DNA of 64,000 bases from Nitrospirota bacterium (GTDB lineage Bacteria; Nitrospirota; UBA9217): positions 1,152,001-1,216,000 of the forward strand of contig CAVVUN010000015.1 of assembly GCA_963751455.1 (NCBI GenBank), given 5' to 3'. Each line of letters begins with the position of its first letter. The stretch's first letter is position 1. The position numbers were made by a program, and so were the translations under genes. Shown here in pieces: positions 9,840 to 33,009 of the stretch. The notes under the pieces are model-generated. The model saw only the letters and a list, made by a program, of their open reading frames with translations, searched no databases and had not been told where the DNA came from.

Positions 9840-10724
9840 ATGAACGATGAAAAGAAAAATGCGGCAGCTGCTCCGGTCTGAAAGCCGTCAGGCGGCAAAG
9901 GTGATTGCCGCGTAGATATGGGGAACACTTTTTCCTCGTGCGCTCTTCCCCTCGGGCCAGGGACAACGGGCTTGGGCTTCGCTGCAGGTGCGGGCACGGA
10001 TAACGACATCCGCACCGCGATCAGGAAAAAATATTCAGAAGTCGCGGCTTCCGCTGCCGGAAAGTTCCAGTATCCTGTCGGCAGGGACGGCGCATACGGC
10101 CTCGCATATGATCCTGTTTTGATAGAGGCAGCCGGGCCGGAGTTTCTAGATTCATTTTGCGGTGTGGGAAATCCTTTTTCCCTCGCTGCAATCCAGCCAG
10201 GCGACAGGGTTCTGGATTTCGGATGCGGTGCTGGCTTCGATCTATTCGTTGCAGCCAAACTGGCAGGAAGCTCGGGCCGCGTTTGTGGAATAGATTTGAC
10301 TGAACAAATGACCAGGCGGGCAGAGGAGAACCTCTTTCGGCTGGGAATCAAGAACTTTGAGGTCAAAAAGGTCGATTCTGAAACCGTACCGTATGAAAAC
10401 AATACGTTTGACGTTGTGATATCGAATGGAGTTATAAACCTGTCCCCTGATAAGGCGGCAGCTTTCAAGGAGATAATCCGCGTTCTGAAGCCGGCCGGAA
10501 GATTTCAATTTGCGGATGTTGTACTCGAGAAAGAGCTGCCGGAAAATATCGCAGGAAGTCTCGAAGCATGGTCCCAGTGAATCGGCGGAACTGTCCCGGT
10601 CAGGGACCAGGTAAGGCTGCTGGAAGAAGCGGGATTCGAAAAACCGGAATTCAAGGGATATACGGGGTATTGGACGTCGGCTTATACTGTCGGAGCTTTA
10701 TTTAAAGCGAGGAAAAAGCTTTAG
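9840..10724 (+). CDS. ArsM (arsenite methyltransferase)-like SAM methyltransferase, predicted selenoprotein with two Sec
   Basis: ATG 9840 (SD GAGG) is in frame with ORF 9918..10580. UGA at 9879-9881 and at 10578-10580 (WSQ-U-IGG, where ArsM-type proteins have W-x-x-C-I-x-G). The frame stays open to TAG 10722-10724. Motifs SFCGVGNP, VLDFGCGAGFD and SNGVINLSPDK. Confidence 0.85.
9882..9911 (+). promoter_or_regulatory. Bacterial SECIS-like hairpin 1
   Basis: 10 nt after UGA 9879: perfect stem GCGGCAA/TTGCCGC with loop AGGTGA. Confidence 0.7.
10581..10610 (+). promoter_or_regulatory. Bacterial SECIS-like hairpin 2
   Basis: 10 nt after UGA 10578: CTGTCCC-GGTCA-GGGA(C)CAG, a bulged stem with a G-initial loop. 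Confidence 0.75.
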
Positions 10725-18365: not shown

Positions 18366-19337
18366 ATGGCCAAAAACAGATTCTCGGATAAGGTTGCTTC
18401 AGTCAGACAGGAACCGCTTGCAGCCGATGCCATAAAGGCGTTGCAGGTAAACCTCGGCTACGCCTGCAATATGTCGTGCAAGCATTGCCATGTATCGGCG
18501 GGCCCCGCACGGATCGAGATAATGGACCGAACCACGATCGATCTCGTTATGGCTGTTCTGCACGAACATCGCATAGAAACGCTGGATATTACCGGCGGCG
18601 CGCCGGAAATGAATCCTGGTTTCAGGGCGCTCGTATCGGAAGCGAAGAAGCGGGGAACCAGGGTCATCGTACGCACAAACCTGACCGTTTTTTCTGAACA
18701 GGGGATGGCTGACCTGCCGGAATTCTACCGAGACACCGGTGTTGAATTGATTGCTTCGCTTCCCTGTTACCTCGAGCAGAACGTGGCCGCTGTACGAGGC
18801 AGGGGCGCGTTTGAAAAAAGCATCGAAGCCCTTCGCCGCCTGAACCGGCTGGGCTTCGGCCTGGGATCGCCGGAGCGGCCTCTGAACCTGGTATACAATC
18901 CCTCCGGACCGTTTTTGCCGCCCGCACAGGCAGGACTCGAAGCCGACTATAAGCGTCAATTGAAGGACCAATACGGGATCACGTTCGACCGGCTATACTC
19001 GTTCGTGAACATGCCGCTGGGGAGGTTCAGGGACCGACTGGTTCATAGCGGCGATTACGAGAGATATTGCGCCATGCTCGAATCCTCGTTCAACCCGGAT
19101 ACGCTGGACCGGCTGATGTGCAGGTCGCTCGTAAGCGTCGGTTGGGACGGCAGGCTCTACGACTGCGATTTCAACCAGGTCCTGGGGATACCGGTAACGC
19201 AGGCAGGCAGCCATATTCGAGGCTTTGATCATGATGCGCTTTCCCGAAGGCGCATCGCTGTGGACAATCACTGCTTCGGCTGCACCGCGGGCCAGGGGTC
19301 AACGTGAATGGGCGCAGTGACCGGGCCGGGCGCCTGA
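18366..19337 (+). CDS. arsS: Radical SAM (seleno)protein ArsS, arsenosugar-biosynthesis family
   Basis: LQVNLGYACNMSCKHCHV, LDITGGAPEMN, MCRSLVSVGWDG.LYDCDFNQ, HCFGCTAGQGST-UGA(19305)-MGA. The UGA sits where the family has GSSCGG. Next stop at 19335-19337. Confidence 0.85.
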
Positions 19338-19439: not shown

Positions 19440-22089
19440 TCATTTCCCGTCCAGCACGTTCCGTACTTTCTCGAGCAATTCGGACGGGATCACCGGTTTC
19501 GACAGGAAATTCACGTCTTTTTCCAGAACGCCCTGATGATTGATCATGTCGGCGGTATACCCGCTCATGAAGAGCGCCTTGACGGCGGGATATTCGCTCA
19601 CGATTCTGTCGTACGCCTTTTTCCCGTTCAACCGGGGCATGATTACGTCGAACAGAAGCAGCCGTATTTCGCCCCGGTGCTGCTTGAATCTTTCAACCGC
19701 CTCTTCGCCGTCCGCGGCTTGAACGACCCGGTAGCCAGGCATCCCGGAGCAGTGAACTGATCATCTCGCGCGACGGTTCGTCGTCTTCGGCAAGCAGTAC
19801 CGTTTCGGAACCCCGAGGGAAGTCGCGCTTATCCTCTCCGACCGGGTTTTCCGCGGCAGCGGTCGTCAGCGGAAAATATATCTGAACGTGCTCCCCTTCC
19901 CGGGTTCGCTGTATACATTGATGAAGCCGTTGTGCTGCTTGACGATTCCATAGACCATTGCAAGCCCCAGCCCTGTGCCCTTGCCGACTTCCTTGGTGGT
20001 AAAAAACGGCTCGAAGACCCTGCTCATGGTCTTGTCATCCATTCCGCAGCCGGTATCGGTCATGCAAAGGCGGGCATATGCGCCCGGAGCGCCGTATCCA
20101 TGAACCGAAATAAAGTCCCGGGTCAGCTCTATAATTTCCGTCTCGATCAGGAATCGTCCCTGGCCCGTAATGGCGTCACGCGCATTGCTCGCGATATTCA
20201 TCAGTACCTGCTCTATCTGGCCGCTGTCCGCCATGACCATGATGTCCTGCGCAGCCAGCATCGTCCGGAGCTCGACCTCCTCGCCGAGGAGCCGCAGAAG
20301 AAGATTTTCGAGGTTCCTGACAATCGCGTTGAGATCGACGGGCCGGAGCTCGATCACCTGTTTTCTGCTATAGGCCAGCATGCCGCGGGTCAGGCCGGCG
20401 GCCCGCTTGGCAGCTGCGACGATCTGCTCCAGGATGAATCGCTCCCGGGAAACTTTTTCGGTCTTTGTCGCCATCATTGATGCGTATCCTGTGATGGTGG
20501 TCAGAATATTGTTGAAATCATGCGCTACGCCGCCTGCCAGCTGGCCCACGGCTTCCATCTTCTGCGCATGCCGGAGCTGTTCCTCTACCTGCTTTCTCTT
20601 CGTCACGTCGTGGAAGAATCCGTAGGAGGCCGTGACCGATCCCTGGTGCCGCTGCGGACTGATCGTGCCTTCAGTCGAAACCGCACGGCCGTCCCTGGCC
20701 GCAAAGATCAGGCTGACCCCGTGAAAGGACTTCCCGGCCAGCGCCTCCCGGAATATCCTGGCCCCGTCCGCATGGTACCGGTCGTGGAGCACATCGAAGA
20801 CGGTCAGTCCCTCCAGTTCCTCCTGCGTGTACTGAAGGGCCGCAAGCCAGGCAGGGTTCACGAACAGGAATTTACCGTTCGCGGGATCAATGCCCTGGAT
20901 CATGTCGTGGGTATTTTCGAAGAGCGTCCGGTAACGCTCTTCAGACTGGTTCAGCGCTGACAGGTGGAGCGAGTTCTTTACGGCAACGGCCGCATTATTG
21001 CCGATCGTCTGGTACAATGCCTGCTCATCGTCGCTGAATTCGCGGCGTTCACGCGTATGACCGATCAGAGCGCCGAACACCTCGTTCTCGATCATCATCG
21101 GCACGCAGAGCGCGGAGGAAATTCCTTCGCTCTTGACGATCCGGCGGTATCTCGAACCGCTGCTCGGCTGCGAAATCGACAACCATTTCGGGCCGCTTGT
21201 TCAGGACGGCGTACGTGGACAGTCCCTGGCCTGCGACGAGCATGAAGGTGTTTACCATGGACTCGGGAAAACCCAGGGTGTCCGCGACAGTCAGCTTCTT
21301 CTTGTCTTGCGAGAGCATCATCAGTGTGGAATAATCGAGCTCCAGGATTTCTTTCGGGACGGCGACTGTTTTCCGGTAGAGCGATTTCAGGTCGGTCGTG
21401 GTCGTGATCTCCCGGGACACGGTAAGAAGGCGTTCAAGGTACCTGGTATGCGCGGAGAGCCGGTTCTCGGCCTGTTTGCGGGAAGTAATATCGCGCACGA
21501 GTTCGACGCCGCCGATGATAGTTCCGGAGGAATCCCTGAGAGGCGATGCGATGATTTCCAGGTAGACGGTGTTCGGCCCCCGCGCCACTTTTCGATCCGC
21601 GCGGTGGATCTTCCCGTCGATGAAGCATAAGGCGATCGGGCAGTCCGGGCAGACGGCATCCGATTTCGCATAGGCTTTATGGCAATACTCTCCGACGCGG
21701 CTCCCCCCGGCAAAGCTCTGATGCACCTGGTTCTGGTAGAGTACCTGGAAATCGGTGCCCTGAATGCTCATGCCGTCGCCCATCGCGGCCATGATCGCTT
21801 CGAACTTGTTCCGTTCCTCCGAGAGGCGAGCAAGATCGCGGTCGTGCTCGGCAGCAAAGCGCGTTACCAGGGAGTAGAGCATCCATGCCGTAAGCCCGAT
21901 GAAGAGAAGAGTGCTGAAGGGCTGCAGTATCAGGCGGGCGGAACCGTTGTCATCGCTAAAAAAAAGTGAATCAGCCCGGTTGAAAAGCAGAAACCAGAGA
22001 AGGGTAGTGAAGGCGTAAATGGCCGCAATCTTGAGCGGGGTAAGCTTTTTCAGAATCGAGTACGACCGTAGACCGGGATTCATCGACAT
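19440..22089 (-). CDS. Hybrid sensor histidine kinase (TM-PAS-GAF-PAS-HisKA-HATPase-REC), split by three single-base frameshifts
   Basis: Pieces 21049..22089, 19866..21182, an intermediate frame (FPL...[10 protein letters not shown]) and 19440..19742 join into one protein. Motifs [25 protein letters not shown]. Shifts near 21140, 19880 and 19737. Confidence 0.8.
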
Positions 22090-24740: not shown

Positions 24741-24941
24741 ATGGAGACAGGCACCGTAAAGTGGTTCAATGATTCCAAAGGTTTTGGATTCATTACCCGT
24801 GAAAAGGGCGGCGATGTGTTCGTTCATTTCGGCGACATTCAGGACAGCGGCTTCAAGTCGTTGGCCGAAGGCCAGTCAGTGCAGTTCGACGTTGTCGACT
24901 CGCCCAAAGGCCCCAAAGCATCTAATGTCGTAAAGCTGTAA
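24741..24941 (+). CDS. csp: Cold-shock protein
   Basis: [15 protein letters not shown]...DVFVHF. SD AGGAGG. TTGACA at 24599 implies a 5' UTR of about 105 nt. Confidence 0.95.
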
Positions 24942-24964
24942 CCGAAAAACTATCCAAGCTTTTT

Positions 24965-24998
24965 CAGGGCCCTGATTATTTCAGGGCCTGTTTTTTTT
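24965..24998 (+). terminator. Rho-independent terminator
   Basis: CAGGGCCCTGA-TTATT-TCAGGGCCTG followed by T8. Confidence 0.8.
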
Positions 24999-25171
24999 GC
25001 GCTCGATGTTGTCACCAAAAGCGGTCCAGGCGTCCTTCTTCGTATATTTTATTGCCTTTTGATTATCTCGTGTTGTTTCTTGAATGCAACTTCCTATCCG
25101 TCGGGAAGGCCAGGCGCGAACAAATATTGTTTCCGCCTCTTTCCCTGTAGCGGTGCTGTCAAGGAGAATAA

Positions 25172-25543
25172 ATGCGCAAACCGACATACAGGGAAAAGCT
25201 GGATATCGAGAGAGCGGCGCTCGTTACTGCCGGCCTCGTATCAGAGCGCTTTCCCGGGGTTTCGAATATTGAATTTCGCATGACCTATTACCGGCGGGGG
25301 TTGAATCAGGTTCTGATGACGCGTACGCTCAGTTTCTCACCCTCTGATTATGCGGGTTTTCATCTGAAATGCATGCATGATGGCTGCACGAACGGGGGAT
25401 ATGATCTTGCTCCGGTGGTTGCAGCTATGGTAAAAGCCCGCAAGAAGTCGTCCAGCGGAAAAATATTTTGTCATGGAACGAACGATACCCTGGGGCATGC
25501 GAGCATCGCCTATGAGGTAAATATTCAATACAGCAAAGGTTGA
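25172..25543 (+). CDS. Conserved hypothetical protein with possible Cys/His metal site
   Basis: 123 aa, SD AAGGAG, CMHDGC...CHG...H. Confidence 0.7.
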   Translation: MRKPTYREKLDIERAALVTAGLVSERFPGVSNIEFRMTYYRRGLNQVLMTRTLSFSPSDYAGFHLKCMHDGCTNGGYDLAPVVAAMVKARKKSSSGKIFCHGTNDTLGHASIAYEVNIQYSKG

Positions 25544-25620
25544 AACGCTTCAGACCTGTAAAAAAAACAAAGCCCGCTCATTTTCGAGAGGGCTTTTGTT
25601 GTCAAAAGGGGCAGCTGGGA

Positions 25621-25908
25621 TTATTTCGCGCCGAGAATCGCGTCTTTGGCTGCTTTGGCAACGCGGAACTTGACGACTTTTTTCGCCTTTATCTTGATGG
25701 TTTCACCGGTTGCGGGGTTTCTGCCCATACGGGCTTTCCTCTGAACGAGAACGAGCTTGCCGAGCCCGGGCAGTGTGAAGCTGTTTTTTGCTTCCTTGTA
25801 GGCGATTTGTGCGATAAAATCCAGGATGTCAGCGGCCGCCTTCTTCGTAAGTGTCGCTTGCTCTGCGAGCTTTGCTACCAACTGCGATTTCGTTAATGGC
25901 TTTGCCAT
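25621..25908 (-). CDS. hup: HU-family DNA-binding protein
   Basis: TKSQLV...LPGLGK...RKARMGRNPATGETIKIKAK..VKF. Confidence 0.95.
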   Translation of the reverse strand: MAKPLTKSQLVAKLAEQATLTKKAAADILDFIAQIAYKEAKNSFTLPGLGKLVLVQRKARMGRNPATGETIKIKAKKVVKFRVAKAAKDAILGAK

Positions 25909-25969
25909 GTATACCCCTTTCGTCGATTAGAATTGGTTGGAATTCCGTCAGTAGTAAACAATAAAAAGA

Positions 25970-26032
25970 TTACTTCTTCTTGCTCTTTGGTTTTTTTACT
26001 TCTTTTTTTGCGCCTTGCCGTGAAGCTGCCAT
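25970..26032 (-). CDS. 20-aa lysine-rich small protein (MAASRQGAKKEVKKPKSKKK)
   Basis: Perfect SD AAGGAGGTGA just upstream of ATG 26032, in the gene string ahead of hup. Confidence 0.6.
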   Translation of the reverse strand: MAASRQGAKKEVKKPKSKKK

Positions 26033-26156
26033 GCCGCATCACCTCCTTTGACCGATCAGAGTCTCTTTGCCACAGAGTACAAGAGATTAATATGCAAGCC
26101 TTTCTCTATGACCTCGGTGTCTTTGGTTTGTTATGTTTCCTGGAGGTAAATTTGCG

Positions 26157-26321
26157 TCAGACGCCGTTTTTGTCGTCCTCTCCGCCCTCGGCGCGCGGTT
26201 CCTGATTCTCAATGGGAATTATTGCGTTTTTATCAAGCTTGCGTTGTCTTTTTTCCTCGCTCTTCTTTTTCTTTGCAAGTTCCTTCTGACGCTTTTGAAA
26301 ATTAAAATTCGGTTTTCCCAC
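26157..26321 (-). CDS. Small basic hypothetical protein
   Basis: GTG start after SD AAGGAGG: GKPNFNFQKRQKELAKKKKSEEKRQRKL... Confidence 0.75.
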   Translation of the reverse strand: MGKPNFNFQKRQKELAKKKKSEEKRQRKLDKNAIIPIENQEPRAEGGEDDKNGV

Positions 26322-26435
26322 TGGATGCCTCCTTAGGAAGAAATGTTCAAACTGACCCGCCCGACAGCGGGCTGGAAGAAGGCGCATGCTTTACGGCGAT
26401 CGACGTTTGATGCAGCGGGTACCGCGTTACGGCAC

Positions 26436-26654
26436 CTACCTTCCCGGCCTCGGCGCAGAACCGGATGGCCGCGAGCGCCTGAGGAGTTTCCTCTTTCGCT
26501 TCTCCGCCTCCACCTGTTTTCTCTTTTTTTTCACCGAGGGCTTTTCGTAAAAGCGCCGTTTCTTCAGATCCCCGAACAGCCCATCAAGCTGGAGTTTCTT
26601 TTTCAGGGTCCGCAGGGCCTTTTCGATGTCCCGGGACTGGACCATTACCTCCAA
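26436..26654 (-). CDS. rpsU: 30S ribosomal protein bS21
   Basis: IEKALRTLKKK...RRFYEKPSVKKKRK. TTG start overlaps the end of the RRM gene. Confidence 0.92.
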   Translation of the reverse strand: MEVMVQSRDIEKALRTLKKKLQLDGLFGDLKKRRFYEKPSVKKKRKQVEAEKRKRKLLRRSRPSGSAPRPGR

Positions 26655-26989
26655 GATCGTTTTCCTCCGCCACCGCCGCCGTAGCCGCCGCCACCTCCGC
26701 GATTACCACCGCCGCCGCCGAACCCGGAACGTGCGCGCTCTGTCTTCGGCCGGGCCTCGTTCACCGTGATCGTCCGGTCCATGAACGATGTGCCGTTCAT
26801 CGCGGAGATCGCCTTTTCCGCGTCCTCATCCGACGCCATCTCCACGAAACCGAACCCCTTGGACCTGCCGTTGGTCTGATCGACGATCAGCGTCGCGGAC
26901 AGGACCTCTCCGATTTTCGAGAATGCCTCCCGCAAATCCTCCTCATGAGTATTGTACGAGAGATTTCCTACATAAAGTTTCTTCGCCAT
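26645..26989 (-). CDS. RRM RNA-binding protein with glycine-rich tail
   Basis: KLYVGNL (RNP2), SKGFGFVEM (RNP1), VNEARP, GGG/RGG tail, SD AGGAGG. Confidence 0.95.
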   Translation of the reverse strand: MAKKLYVGNLSYNTHEEDLREAFSKIGEVLSATLIVDQTNGRSKGFGFVEMASDEDAEKAISAMNGTSFMDRTITVNEARPKTERARSGFGGGGGNRGGGGGYGGGGGGKRSWR

Positions 26990-27521
26990 GATGCCTCCTG
27001 TGTATTTCAAGTCGCCTGACGGTCATTGCCGCACAGCGCGTTTACGTCCCTTCACAGTCACTCTGTGTCCCGTAGAAAAGCGCGGATTTCGCGTGAGGTG
27101 ACCGGCAAAGCCGCATCGTTCGCCAACCAGACATGCTGTCGCTTTTGAGTGCGAAAGGTGAGAGCGAGAGGAGTCAGTGATCGATGATAGGGCAGGGGCA
27201 TCTCTTCAGATAACCAGAGCCCATTGCCCCGTTAATGGCGTGTAGTATATTATACCCGTTTTCGCTCATTTTGCAAGGGTTTTTCGGGACTGCGTTTCAC
27301 GCGGAGGCGCGGAGTCGCGGAGGATAAATCAACAACCGGTCCTCTGTTCGGTTTATCCCAAAAAACATAAAGTTCGGCTTTTTTTTCCGATTCTCCGCGA
27401 GTTCCATGCCTCCGCGCGAGACTTTCGGTAAAAATTCGGTGAAGTCTTGCGAATTCCTCCGCGAACTCTGTTATGCGTGCATTATGGCAACAACAGGGTA
27501 CGCCTCCGCATGAGACAAGTC

Positions 27522-28975: not shown

Positions 28976-29058
28976 CCGGAAAACGTGCAGCATAAACAGT
29001 ATAGGCCTGACTATAATGAATGTCAGCCGCCAGGAAATCATAAACATTGGGAGGACTC

Positions 29059-29262
29059 ATGGATCTGTTTGATCGGGTTGTCGGCATATTGAAGAGAACG
29101 AATGAGAAGGAAATTGCGCCCGAGGTAAAACCGGGACGCAATGAGCCGTGCTGGTGCGGCAGCGGAAAGAAGTTCAAGAAATGTCACCTTCCCGAAGAGG
29201 AAAAGAAGGCGACAGCGAACGCCTGTTCGCTTAACTGCGGCCCTGCCTGACACTCTTCATGA
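29059..29262 (+). CDS. Small SEC-C zinc-motif protein, candidate selenoprotein ([12 protein letters not shown])
   Basis: [29 protein letters not shown] 29248-29250 is followed by a SECIS-like hairpin. The gene ends at 29250 if the UGA is a true stop. Confidence 0.7.
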
Positions 29263-29292
29263 GCTGAGTTTCAGCTCGACTAACGTGAAGGG
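29251..29292 (+). promoter_or_regulatory. Bacterial SECIS-like hairpin 3
   Basis: 10 nt after the UGA: GAGCTGA-GTT-TCAGCTC. Lower stem CTCTTCA (29253-59) / TGAAGGG (29286-92). No U-tract follows. Confidence 0.6.
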
Positions 29293-29446
29293 ATGGTATT
29301 GAGGGTCCGGCCTTCTTTACTTTTTCCGTGTTCATGAACATTCCTGCCCATGCAATCTCCTGCATTGTTCTGCCGCAGCACTCTGTTGCATCAAATGTAA
29401 TTGCGGAACCACAGTAATTACCCTATAATCCTAATCCGAAAAAACA

Positions 29447-30445: not shown

Positions 30446-33009
30446 GTGAAACTAGCCCGTAACCATAAGCTCGGCATCGTGATCGCCGTCATCGCTCTGC
30501 TGGCGTACGTGTCCTTTCTTCTCACCACTAATTATCTTTCGCAGAAAAACCTGAAGCAGACACTGCTCGAGCAGTTCCGGCTCGAGAATGAGACGCACGC
30601 CACGGAAATCTCTTATTTTTTTTCCGAACGCCGCGAAGATTTGAGGAACCTGACTTTGTCTCGCGAGGTTGCGGTCTTCTTCGAGAACCGCGCACTCGGC
30701 ATGAGCATGGAATACGGGTTGAAACAGAGCTTGCCTCCGATCAAGAACCTGTTCGTTTCCCTGATTGATCGCGCCCGCATCGGTAAGGAGTCAGCGTATC
30801 TCCAGATCGTGCTTCTTGACGAAAACGGCGATCTTCTCGTCCAGGTTGCGGCGCCCGGCCGGGCGCGAGTACTGACGGCTGGGGAAAAAGAGTACAACAG
30901 CCCTGACTATCCCGCCGGGATGGTAATTGCCGAGGACCGCGACAGGACGATCGTGATCACGACATCATATTTTTTCAAGGGAAAGCATTCAGGCGGGATC
31001 ATTGCCTGGATCAACCCGAACTATGTCGCCGAACACGTAGTTAAACCCAGAGACCATCATCCGGAGCAGACACCCAGTCTCGTGACCGCGAGCAAGACCG
31101 TCTATATTCATGCGGATAGATCGAGCGTGTCCGGTTTCCCGGACCGACTGAGCGATCATCCCCTGCGGTTCGAGGAGCGACGGCCCGGGGAAAAGGCAAA
31201 GGACATGATCTCTTTGGCCTCACTGGTGAAAGACACGCCGTTCTTTCTTGTTTCCCGGGTGCCGGCCCAGACCGTAGTCGGTGGACTCGAGCCGGGGGGC
31301 TTCTCGCCGGCATGGGGATACTCGCGCTTGTGATCATCGGCGGGGGCCTGGCCACAGTCAGGGTCATGACCCGTACGGTGCTTCTCCAGACCAGGCTGGA
31401 TGCTTCGCTCAGGCATGAACAGAACGTGCGAGAAAAGAACATCCAGCTCGAAAAGGAGATCGCCGAACGCAAACAGGCGGAGGAGGCGCTCCGGAACAGT
31501 GAAGACCGCTATCGCACTCTTGTCGAAACCTCGCCGGACGTGATTTTTACGGTCTCCCTTGGAGACGGCATCTTCCGGTCGATTAACCCGGTCTTTGAGA
31601 AGATCACCGGGTGGCCACGCACGGAATGGATCGGCAGGCCCTTCCTCGATATTATCCATCCCGACTATCGTGCGATTGCACTTGAAAAACATCGCGAAGC
31701 AATAAATGGGGCCGGCGTGATGCGGTACGATCTCCGGTGTCTCACCAGGTACGGGACGTGCCGGATAATCGAGGTGACGTCCGCGCCGCTTCCACAGAAC
31801 GGTGTCGTGTCGGGCAGGCTGGGCATCGCGCGGGACATCACGGAGCGGACCGTCCTCGAGGAGCAGCTCCGGCATGCCGTTAAAATGCAGGCAATAGGAC
31901 AGCTTGCGGGTGGCATTGCCCATGACTTCAACAATATTCTTTCCGTTATTATCGGAGCCTGCGATCTGGTTCTCCTGGACCTGCAGGAGGGCAATCCCGC
32001 GCGGTCCAAGATTCAGATGGTATTGGCGTCTGCGGAGCGGGGCGCCCAGCTCACGAGGAACCTGTTGACCTTCAGCCGGAAGCAGGTGGTGAGAATGCAG
32101 GCGCAGAACCTCAACGAGATCATCCTGAGCGTCGAGCCCCTTATCTCACGTCTTATCCGGGAGGACATCCGATTTTCCGTGGACCTGGCCGCCGACAGGC
32201 TGCTATGCATGGCGGACAGCACACAGATAGAGCAGGCGCTTATGAATCTTGCAGCGAATGCGAGAGATGCCATGGCGGGCGGGGGGAAATTTACGATCAC
32301 TTCAGGCCGTGTGATCATGGACGGGCAGTTCAGGAGGGAGCGCGGGTTCGGGCGGGAAGGAGAATATGCGGTTATTCGAGTAGAGGATACGGGCATCGGA
32401 ATGGACGAAAAAACCCGGCAGCGTATCTTCGAGCCGTTCTTTACGACCAAGGATGTTGGCAAGGGGACCGGGCTGGGGCTCGCAACGGTTTTCGGGATCG
32501 TTAAGCAGCACAACGGGTATATAGAAACGAAGAGCGAGGTCGGCAAGGGGACTGTTTTTATTATTTATCTTCCATTGATTGCGGCTAGCGCAGAGAGGGC
32601 CGGGGCGGCGCCGGAACAGCGTCTCAGGGGTTCGGAAACTGTTCTCGTGGCTGAAGACGAGGGGTCTGTCCGGGCCATTATTACGCAAATACTGGCGAAG
32701 TCAGGATACCGGGTCATCGAAGCGCATGACGGTGAGGACGCGGAGGTCAAGTTCCATGCTCACCGCGACGAGATTGATCTTCTGATCTTCGATGTGATCA
32801 TGCCGGGAAAGAACGGCAAGCAGGCATACGACAGCATCAAAAAAATCCGGCCGGACCTGAAGTGCCTGTTCCTGAGCGGTTACACAGCTGATGTCATCAG
32901 TAATTCCGGAATTTCTGAAAAGGAAGGCGCCTTTCTCCAGAAGCCTGTGCCGCCCCATATCCTGCTGACAAAGGTTCGTGAGATCCTTGGGGCTTCGCTG
33001 ATACAATGA
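30446..33009 (+). CDS. Hybrid sensor histidine kinase (periplasmic sensor-PAS-HisKA-HATPase-REC), frameshift near 31295
   Basis: 30446..31333 and 31312..33009 join at a G6 run just before TM2. Motifs [19 protein letters not shown]. Confidence 0.82.

What the first reader, a model, noticed from the sequence alone, without database searches (positions are those of the whole stretch)
29059..29292. Candidate new selenoprotein: SEC-C zinc knuckle with a C-terminal CxxxCGPA-U tail
Seen: the 63-aa protein ends [12 protein letters not shown]. Exactly 10 nt later a perfect 7-bp stem with a G-initial loop begins (GAGCTGA-GTT-TCAGCTC), on a 7-bp lower stem and with no U-tract. This is the same geometry as both methyltransferase SECIS hairpins. 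Read-through adds U-H-S-S before a second UGA. I do not recognise this as a described selenoprotein family. Inference: a redox- or metal-sensing tail linked to a SecA-type Zn motif.
Basis: partly seen in the sequence, partly recalled or inferred. Interest (0 to 1): 0.74.

Follow-up and report, generated by a model that had tools for sequence, protein, structure and literature searches.

The report
Hidden selenoprotein with SecA-type metal knuckle
A small gene that databases end at a UGA stop very likely reads that codon as selenocysteine, giving a protein family missing from the catalogues checked, in which a SecA-type metal knuckle carries a short cysteine-selenocysteine tail predicted to work as a redox switch.

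Summary
The UGA at 29248 is very likely selenocysteine (about 0.93), giving a 67-residue protein: amphipathic helix, SEC-C knuckle, helix, then C-G-P-A-U-H-S-S.

All 68 homologous loci with the tail cysteine, from three phyla, end in TGA. In the 64 scored together, 59 have a SECIS-type hairpin, and all 64 have a second stop of any type 1-5 codons later. Of 14 homologues without the tail cysteine, 11 end in TAG/TAA. In a 301-genome phylum sample, 45 of 47 carriers have selA, and none of 140 genomes in selA-free families carry the gene. A separate U-tract terminator lies downstream.

The family is absent from a 119-family 2026 inventory and from NCBIfam 20.0.

Corrections: the lower stem and first tail cysteine are not conserved, and cysteine versions are nearly absent (1 possible among 191 proteins), which hides the family from Sec/Cys-pair searches.

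Function is inferred, not shown. Most likely the tail forms a reversible Cys-Sec bond acting on a partner that the knuckle docks, perhaps the ribosome. The neighbourhood gives no clue, and this assembly's selD is frameshifted.

The parts
29012..29017 (+). Candidate -10 box (TATAAT) of the gene's own promoter
   Evidence: Seen; not called by the promoter scan on +; TATAAT is the commonest 6-mer upstream of homologues, 15 of 73. Weak.
29050..29054 (+). Shine-Dalgarno GGAGG
   Evidence: similar purine tracts before most homologues
29059..29262 (+). Full coding sequence with read-through: 67 aa, Sec at position 64, true stop TGA 29260-29262
29062..29103 (+). N-terminal amphipathic helix (residues 2-15), predicted membrane or partner anchor
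   Evidence: AlphaFold helix 3-15; hydrophobic at positions 3, 4, 7, 8, 10, 11 in 67-98% of 43 homologues, charged at 5-6; mean hydrophobic moment 0.50 against 0.31 shuffled
29137..29193 (+). SEC-C (SecA-type) metal knuckle, residues 27-45; ligands C31, C33, C42, H43, plus the conserved S35
   Evidence: Pfam PF02810 E 6e-12; invariant columns; PDB sequence hits 1ozb, 1sx0, 9l6b
29224..29226 (+). Cys56, first tail cysteine (clade-specific)
   Evidence: present in 36 of 64 tailed loci
29236..29238 (+). Cys60, invariant tail cysteine, predicted partner of Sec
   Evidence: invariant in alignment A4; its loss goes with loss of TGA and hairpin
29248..29250 (+). UGA, predicted selenocysteine codon (U64)
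   Evidence: 68 of 68 tailed loci have TGA
29261..29277 (+). SECIS upper stem-loop (7 bp, loop GTT); starts inside the true stop codon, otherwise non-coding
29253..29292 (+). Lower stem, folds in this genome only
   Evidence: not conserved
29301..29325 (+). Intrinsic-terminator-like hairpin with U-tract
   Evidence: 2 sites found in 600 nt, 0.8 expected by shuffle, so modest

Best explanation
The gene very likely encodes a 67-residue selenoprotein whose tail is predicted to form a reversible Cys60-Sec64 bond and to act as a tethered reductant or redox switch on a partner that the SEC-C knuckle likely docks. Step 1 (strongly inferred, about 0.93): SelB binds the hairpin behind the UGA, Sec is inserted, and translation ends three codons later. 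Step 2 (inferred from family knowledge, about 0.85): C31/C33/C42/H43 and S35 bind one Zn or Fe ion as in SecA, YecA and YchJ. Step 3 (inferred, about 0.55): the amphipathic first helix holds the protein at the inner membrane surface. Step 4 (inferred, about 0.5): the flexible C-x(3-4)-U tail cycles between selenylsulfide and selenol/thiol. Step 5 (speculative, about 0.3): the docking partner is the ribosome or the SecA/SecY machinery rather than SecB. When selenium is short, the 63-residue product would keep helix and knuckle but lack the switch, much like the naturally tail-less homologues.
For: Recoding: 64 of 64 tailed loci end in TGA, 59 of 64 have the hairpin, and 64 of 64 have a second in-frame stop after 1-5 codons (TGA 39, TAA 13, TAG 12). 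Four more tailed loci also end in TGA. Background in this genome: TGA 1067 of 2604 stops, second stop 205 of 1067, hairpin 89 of 1067. Tail-less controls: TAG 8, TAA 3, TGA 3 of 14, and none of the three TGA ones has a hairpin. Stem 99.1% paired, 2 of 6 pairs with changes on both sides, 1 of 500 shuffles as good; quite different stem sequences in the second phylum keep a G-first loop. Codon-like variation continues past the TGA: synonymous share 0.43 and 0.60 in frame against 0.00-0.34 in shifted frames. selA, selB and two tRNA-Sec are in this genome. 45 of 47 carriers have selA, and 0 of 140 genomes in selA-free families carry the gene. The bSECIS model criteria are met (PMC13188914). Function: Cys60 and Sec are kept or lost together; the spacing varies from 2 to 4 residues, which suits a flexible redox loop better than a rigid site; tail confidence is low in both models; SecA-like knuckles bind ribosomes even without SecB (PMC6620043) and bind iron through the conserved serine (10.1101/613315); no SecB over cut-off in 5 of 5 carrier genomes.
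Against: No direct evidence of Se incorporation, expression, metal binding or a partner. No conserved neighbourhood points to any pathway. A Sec/Cys pair, the usual support, is nearly absent: 1 possible of 191 proteins, its DNA unseen. Kin are not independent: 37 of the 64 loci come from one family, and 3 of the 6 stem pairs never vary. 5 of 64 tailed loci miss the strict hairpin test, and L219 has no clear one. This assembly's selD has a one-base frameshift, the only split gene of 14 tested. Two carriers (63% and 89% complete) lack selA, selB and tRNA-Sec in their assemblies, although the second has a Sec-type selD. Structure models are of modest confidence (pLDDT 67-71, pTM 0.3-0.4) and say nothing about contacts between tail and knuckle.
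Confidence: 0.45

Rival explanations
1. It is a selenoprotein, but the tail is a second, soft-metal site (Cu, Hg, As or an Fe-S/Se intermediate), and the protein is a small metal carrier or scavenger held at the membrane.
For: In the window's clade C56, C60 and U64 are spaced i, i+4, i+8, which would put them on one face of a helix; the read-through model extends the helix to residue 59. Several small bacterial selenoproteins are proposed to be metal ligands (PMC13188914 passages).
Against: C56 is present in only 36 of 64 loci and the Cys-to-Sec spacing varies. No metal-transport or resistance genes recur beside it.
Confidence: 0.28
2. The point of the recoding is regulatory: the ratio of 63- to 67-residue product reports selenium supply (for example by changing stability or docking), or the strongly conserved non-coding SECIS titrates SelB.
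For: Only 1-5 residues follow Sec; tail-less homologues of similar length persist in selB-positive genomes, 9 of 11, so the short form may be functional; the hairpin sequence is highly conserved in the window's family.
Against: Cys60 is kept only together with Sec, which points to chemistry between them. Downstream genes vary, so it is not a leader peptide for a fixed operon.
Confidence: 0.13
3. The UGA is an ordinary stop backed by a fail-safe second stop, and the hairpin is a 3' stabilising or processing element unrelated to Sec.
For: Cys versions are nearly absent; TGA is the commonest stop here, 41%; no expression or proteomic data were found.
Against: First stop invariant in three phyla while the second varies; hairpin at SECIS distance with a G-first loop despite different stem sequences; all three signs vanish in tail-less homologues; gene confined to Sec-using lineages; separate terminator downstream.
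Confidence: 0.06

Closest known systems
SecA-type metal-binding domain (SEC-C, PF02810) of SecA, YecA, YchJ and some methionine aminopeptidases (PDB 1ozb, 1sx0, 9l6b; PMC6620043; 10.1101/613315)
   Same: CXCX8CH ligand set, conserved Ser and aromatic residue, basic surface; the best NCBIfam partial hits are these families.
   Different: Here the knuckle is the core of a stand-alone protein of about 65 residues with an amphipathic N-helix and a Cys/Sec tail; every NCBIfam score is far below its cut-off; no SEC-C selenoprotein is listed in the 119-family table.
Small bacterial selenoproteins with Sec near the C-terminus: UXX-star families 1 and 2 (NF041114, NF041211), KCU-star (NF033934), SaoC (NF040734), FmdB-family (TIGR02605), MbdU (NF045648)
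   Same: Sec within a few residues of the end, so the SECIS falls partly or wholly outside the coding sequence and gene callers simply stop at UGA; some are small metal-binding proteins (names and motifs from PMC13188914 Table 1).
   Different: No match to any of these models at E up to 10; different domain (SEC-C) and motif (C-x3/4-U-x1-5-stop).
Eukaryotic SELENOS / SELENOK
   Same: Works-like analogy only: membrane anchor at the N-side, flexible C-terminal segment with Sec near the end; SELENOS closes a Cys-Sec selenylsulfide loop, is a reductase in vitro and associates with ribosomes and membrane-protein biogenesis complexes (PMC13524514 passages).
   Different: No homology detected (Pfam gives SEC-C only); amphipathic rather than transmembrane helix; loop of 3-4 residues against 13; has a metal knuckle.

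Membership tests
Bacterial selenoprotein gene (bSECIS model, PMC13188914) | In-frame UGA conserved across homologues, frame continuing beyond it | tested here: met
   68 of 68 tailed loci TGA; codon-like variation after it
Bacterial selenoprotein gene (bSECIS model, PMC13188914) | Stem 4-16 bp, loop 3-9 nt with G in position 1 or 2, loop 16-37 nt from UGA, energy at most -7.5 kcal/mol | tested here: met
   7 bp, loop GTT, 17 nt, -10.1 to -18.1 kcal/mol; criteria; 59 of 64 homologues pass a similar test
Bacterial selenoprotein gene (bSECIS model, PMC13188914) | selA, selB and tRNA-Sec in the genome | tested here: met
   45 of 47 carriers have selA
Bacterial selenoprotein gene (bSECIS model, PMC13188914) | Intact selD in this genome | tested here: inconclusive
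   Sec-type selD present but frameshifted by one base in this assembly; intact in 5 of 5 short-contig relatives
Bacterial selenoprotein gene (bSECIS model, PMC13188914) | Cysteine at the Sec position in homologues (usual supporting criterion, not part of the mechanism) | tested here: not met
   0 of 82 genomic loci; 1 possible of 191 database proteins (P0174), DNA not seen
Bacterial selenoprotein gene (bSECIS model, PMC13188914) | Selenium shown in the protein | not testable with these tools
   needs 75Se labelling or mass spectrometry
SecA-type metal-binding domain (PF02810) | CXCX8C(H/C) motif with conserved Ser and aromatic residue | tested here: met
   C31, C33, S35, F39, C42, H43; Pfam 45.6 bits over cut-off 20.4
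SecA-type metal-binding domain (PF02810) | Binds Zn or Fe; binds ribosomes | not testable with these tools
   known for SecA, YecA, YchJ; not shown for this family
SecA-type metal-binding domain (PF02810) | SecB present as partner | tested here: not met
   no PF02556 match over cut-off in 5 of 5 carrier genomes; one weak match in G000
Catalogued small C-terminal-Sec families (UXX-star, KCU-star, SaoC, CC/Se, FmdB, MbdU) | Match to the family's NCBIfam model | tested here: not met
   5 proteins scanned at E up to 10, only partial SEC-C hits
SELENOK / SELENOS | Sequence homology and a transmembrane helix | tested here: not met
   Pfam SEC-C only; N-helix amphipathic with mean hydrophobicity 0.19

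The most novel reading that the evidence does not exclude
A bacterial counterpart in design of SELENOS/SELENOK: an essentially Sec-only, membrane-tethered mini-protein whose SecA-type knuckle docks on the ribosome or translocon and whose selenium tail couples redox or selenium status to protein export or translation in anaerobes. It would be the first link between selenocysteine and the SecA metal knuckle.
Probability: 0.2. Interest if true: 0.8.

Novelty: new variant of a known kind. Interest (0 to 1): 0.55.

Why it matters
It adds a widespread selenoprotein family (hundreds of database clusters, cut at the UGA in those inspected) that standard discovery methods would miss by design. deep-Sep, for example, keeps a candidate only if it has a known Sec homologue or Cys-containing homologues (PMC12013277), and this family loses Cys and Sec together instead of swapping Sec for Cys.

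It gives a natural three-way comparison (two-Cys plus Sec tail, one-Cys plus Sec tail, no tail) for asking what Sec adds to a 60-residue protein. It also gives a set of non-coding bacterial SECIS elements, free of codon constraints, for defining what SelB needs.

If the knuckle docks on ribosomes as SecA's does, selenium chemistry would touch bacterial translation or export. As one more predicted family among about 120, with no function shown, it is solid rather than startling.

Tried and rejected
- Second TGA as a second Sec: rejected. It is TAA or TAG in 25 of 64 loci, and indels break the frame behind it.
- Hairpin as terminator: rejected. It has no U-tract, and a separate U-tract hairpin lies at 29301-29325.
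- Conserved lower stem: rejected.
- Operon or leader-peptide role: no neighbour recurs beyond close kin. The first nearest-ORF pick was confused by antisense frames, so clustering was used instead.
- Shared upstream operator: only sigma-70-like boxes were seen.
- Metagenome-contig scan with P0156: none of 14 loci was a family member, so the homologues ending in FG and the possible Cys form P0174 could not be checked at DNA level.
- RNA runs: three runs with 3% word share covered only the generic SEC-C stretch of other genes; no evidence either way.
- Fold search: no match at E 0.001 or better.
- ESM Atlas: unnamed SEC-C clusters only.
- Viral contigs (one strict pattern) and plasmids: no match.
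- Fusions: the 'longer' search gave mis-called starts and one read-through call, no real fusion among the 8 best inspected of 120 listed.
- Tree: quick method, 61 columns, mostly unresolved. It shows two separate tail-less clades but no direction.
- Haft and Tolstoy 2025 could not be read.

Full report
Observation. The ORF begins at ATG 29059 and ends at TGA 29248-29250 after 63 codons; CAC TCT TCA TGA follow. Ten bases after the TGA a 7-bp stem with loop GTT begins (29261-29277). The stretch 29248-29298 folds at -18.1 kcal/mol (z -3.0); with a longer 3' flank z falls to -1.1, and the upper stem alone gives -10.1 (z -1.8). This meets the bacterial SECIS model: stem 4-16 bp, loop 3-9 nt, G in the first two loop positions, 16-37 nt spacing, energy at most -7.5 (PMC13188914, passages). 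No U-tract follows it, while a terminator-like hairpin with U-tract lies at 29301-29325. Residues 27-45 match Pfam SEC-C. The genome has selA and selB over their cut-offs and two tRNA-Sec genes. Its Sec-type selD is split by a one-base frameshift; five relatives have it intact, and it was the only split gene of 14 orthologues tested, so assembly error is likely but not shown. The organism is inferred to belong to Nitrospirota from the names of close homologues.

Homologues. A search of 61 relatives gave 23 full-length homologues, and a profile search of the whole family gave 37 of 64 genomes. A wider profile found 48 of 301 genomes of the phylum, 43 of 401 in the phylum of G090, a Desulfobacterales record (26 full-length, the rest generic SEC-C), and 11 of 251 in the phylum of G092, an Acidobacteriota record (7 matches of this architecture).

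Stop codons and hairpins. One search scored 76 distinct rows; I dropped two unrelated SEC-C genes in L003 and L120. Of the 74 left, 64 have a cysteine 2-4 residues before the stop. All 64 end in TGA, 59 have a hairpin of at least 5 bp with G at loop position 1 or 2, and all 64 have a second in-frame stop after 1-5 codons (TGA 39, TAA 13, TAG 12). L149 and L215, L216 and L219 add four tailed loci, all TGA; L219 lacks a clear hairpin. L183 is cut by its contig end. The 14 homologues without the tail cysteine (10; L080, L213, L218, L224) end in TAG 8, TAA 3 and TGA 3. None of the TGA ones has a hairpin, and only L080 (TAG) passes weakly. In this genome 41% of long frames end in TGA, 205 of 1067 TGA stops have a second stop within 5 codons, 89 have the hairpin and 12 have both.

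Covariation and coding signal. On 36 distinct sequences of the window's family the 6-bp core is 99.1% paired, 2 pairs change on both sides, 3 never vary, and slid controls pair at 27-37%. In the second phylum the stem sequence is quite different, yet the loop starts with G about 18-20 nt from the TGA. The lower stem is not conserved. Codons after the TGA vary like coding sequence: Ser and Arg are kept through several synonymous codons, and the synonymous share of differing codons is 0.43 and 0.60 in frame against 0.23/0.01 and 0.34/0.00 in shifted frames (small and non-independent sets). The 64 loci include 23 labelled genera, but 37 come from one family, so the counts overstate independence; the agreement of three phyla and the tail-less control carry the weight.

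Distribution. In the 301-genome sample 145 have selA. After dropping G235, whose match is the N-terminus of a 374-residue protein, 47 carry the gene and 45 of them have selA. The two exceptions are 63% and 89% complete, lack selB and tRNA-Sec too, and the second has a Sec-type selD. None of 140 genomes in families without selA carries it. It is patchy among Sec users (45 of 145). Tail-less homologues lie in selB-positive genomes in 9 of 11 cases, so their lack of a tail is not forced by loss of the machinery. A quick tree puts them in two separate clades but cannot give direction. No match was found in viral contigs with one strict pattern or in plasmids.

No cysteine form. Among 191 family-like database proteins gathered end 2-5 residues after the last cysteine, 3 have no tail cysteine, and one (P0174) ends in Cys and may be a Cys form; its DNA was not seen. 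A profile with C at the Sec position did not raise any Cys form among its best 120. These searches list only the best hits, so rare Cys forms may exist.

Anatomy and function. Both AlphaFold models give a helix at 3-15, a loose linker, the knuckle, a helix from 44 to 55 or 59, and a low-confidence tail (pLDDT 71 and 67). Positions 3, 4, 7, 8, 10 and 11 are hydrophobic and 5-6 charged across 43 homologues; the mean hydrophobic moment is 0.50 against 0.31 for shuffles, and 0.63 for this protein. That fits a membrane-surface anchor, or a protein-binding helix. The knuckle keeps C31, C33, C42, H43, S35 and the aromatic residue. In SecA, YecA and YchJ this domain binds Zn or, by preference, Fe through the serine (10.1101/613315, passages), and it binds ribosomes, also in species without SecB (PMC6620043, passages). 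SecB was not found over cut-off in 5 carrier genomes. Cys60 is invariant in tailed forms and is lost together with Sec; Cys56 is present in 36 of 64; the spacing from Cys to Sec is 3 residues in 45 loci, 4 in 18 and 2 in one. I therefore favour a flexible Cys-Sec redox pair acting on a docked partner (0.45 overall) over a soft-metal site (0.28), a selenium-status signal (0.13) or an ordinary stop (0.06). Neighbouring genes differ between lineages and give no pathway; many members appear to have their own sigma-70-type promoter. RNA runs covered only generic SEC-C stretches.

Comparison with what is known. The family is not among the 119 families of Table 1 in PMC13188914 (section 7, parts 1 and 2 of 3 read). 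NCBIfam 20.0 has no model that it reaches; only partial SEC-C hits appear, even at E up to 10 with the read-through form. Public records name it 'SEC-C metal-binding domain-containing protein' or hypothetical and end at the UGA. Searches for a prior description were (listings seen), plus term searches in deep-Sep (PMC12013277, passages), BSepDB (PMC13326102, passages; its supplement was cut when stored, so the family table may be unseen) and Haft and Gwadz (10.1101/2022.07.06.499078, passages). Haft and Tolstoy 2025 is not held; I know its families only through the review table and NCBIfam. The closest kinds are small proteins with Sec near the end (UXX-star, KCU-star, SaoC, FmdB, MbdU), none homologous by model. 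SELENOS offers a design analogy only (PMC13524514, passages). They did find unchecked notes of Sec tails on other small metal-binding domains (FmdB ribbons, DUF5714), which suggest a recurring theme; I did not test them.

Verdict. A real, previously uncatalogued selenoprotein family is the best reading, with recoding at about 0.93. It is a new variant of a known kind: known recoding machinery, new domain architecture, almost no Cys counterpart. Function is unproven. Interest 0.55; 0.8 if the ribosome- or translocon-docking redox switch (probability 0.2) proves true.

Noticed in passing
G000:C2:129959-130880 (L192) and G081 (L191): The Sec-type selD is split by a one-base frameshift near codon 194 in this assembly, and by a different one about 12 nt away in G081; 5 of 5 other relatives are intact. 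Probably assembly error, but it was the only split gene among 14 tested.
   Followed up: partly
window 9840-10709 (+): ArsM-like methyltransferase with two in-frame TGA (9879 and 10578). The second fits the known ArsM U-x-x-G site; the first lies in an N-terminal extension with a good SECIS-like hairpin and is below the cut-off of all four related NCBIfam models.
   Followed up: partly
L170, L172, L175, L176, L178, L179, L181, L182, L183: The tail-less clade in the phylum of G090 lies directly behind an RRM RNA-binding gene in 8 of 10 scored loci plus L183, a weak hint at an RNA or ribosome link for the knuckle.
   Followed up: partly
G728 (L219 and L224): One genome carries both a tailed TGA form and a tail-less TAG form of the family.
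   Followed up: no
proteins P0156, P0184, P0238, P0274: These homologues end in Phe-Gly, recalling the GFG-Sec-Gly end noted for FmdB ribbons in earlier findings; their DNA was not seen.
   Followed up: partly
G000:C1:369631-369729 and C13:3947-4041: Two tRNA-Sec genes, the second on a 9 kb contig that could be contamination.
   Followed up: no
window 29007-29026: Short inverted repeat (5 bp arms, 10 nt apart) enclosing the candidate -10 box; not seen upstream of homologues.
   Followed up: partly
window 19866-22089 (-) and 30446-33009 (+): Two sensor-kinase-like genes appear split over two frames, suggesting indels in the assembly.
   Followed up: no
window 24741-27010: Cluster of small nucleic-acid-binding genes (cold-shock, HU-like, S21-like, RRM; names recalled from the translations, not scanned) 2 kb upstream of the gene.
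   Followed up: no
window 18366-19307 (+): Radical SAM protein over the cut-off of TIGR04167 (ArsS seleno/Cys family).
   Followed up: no
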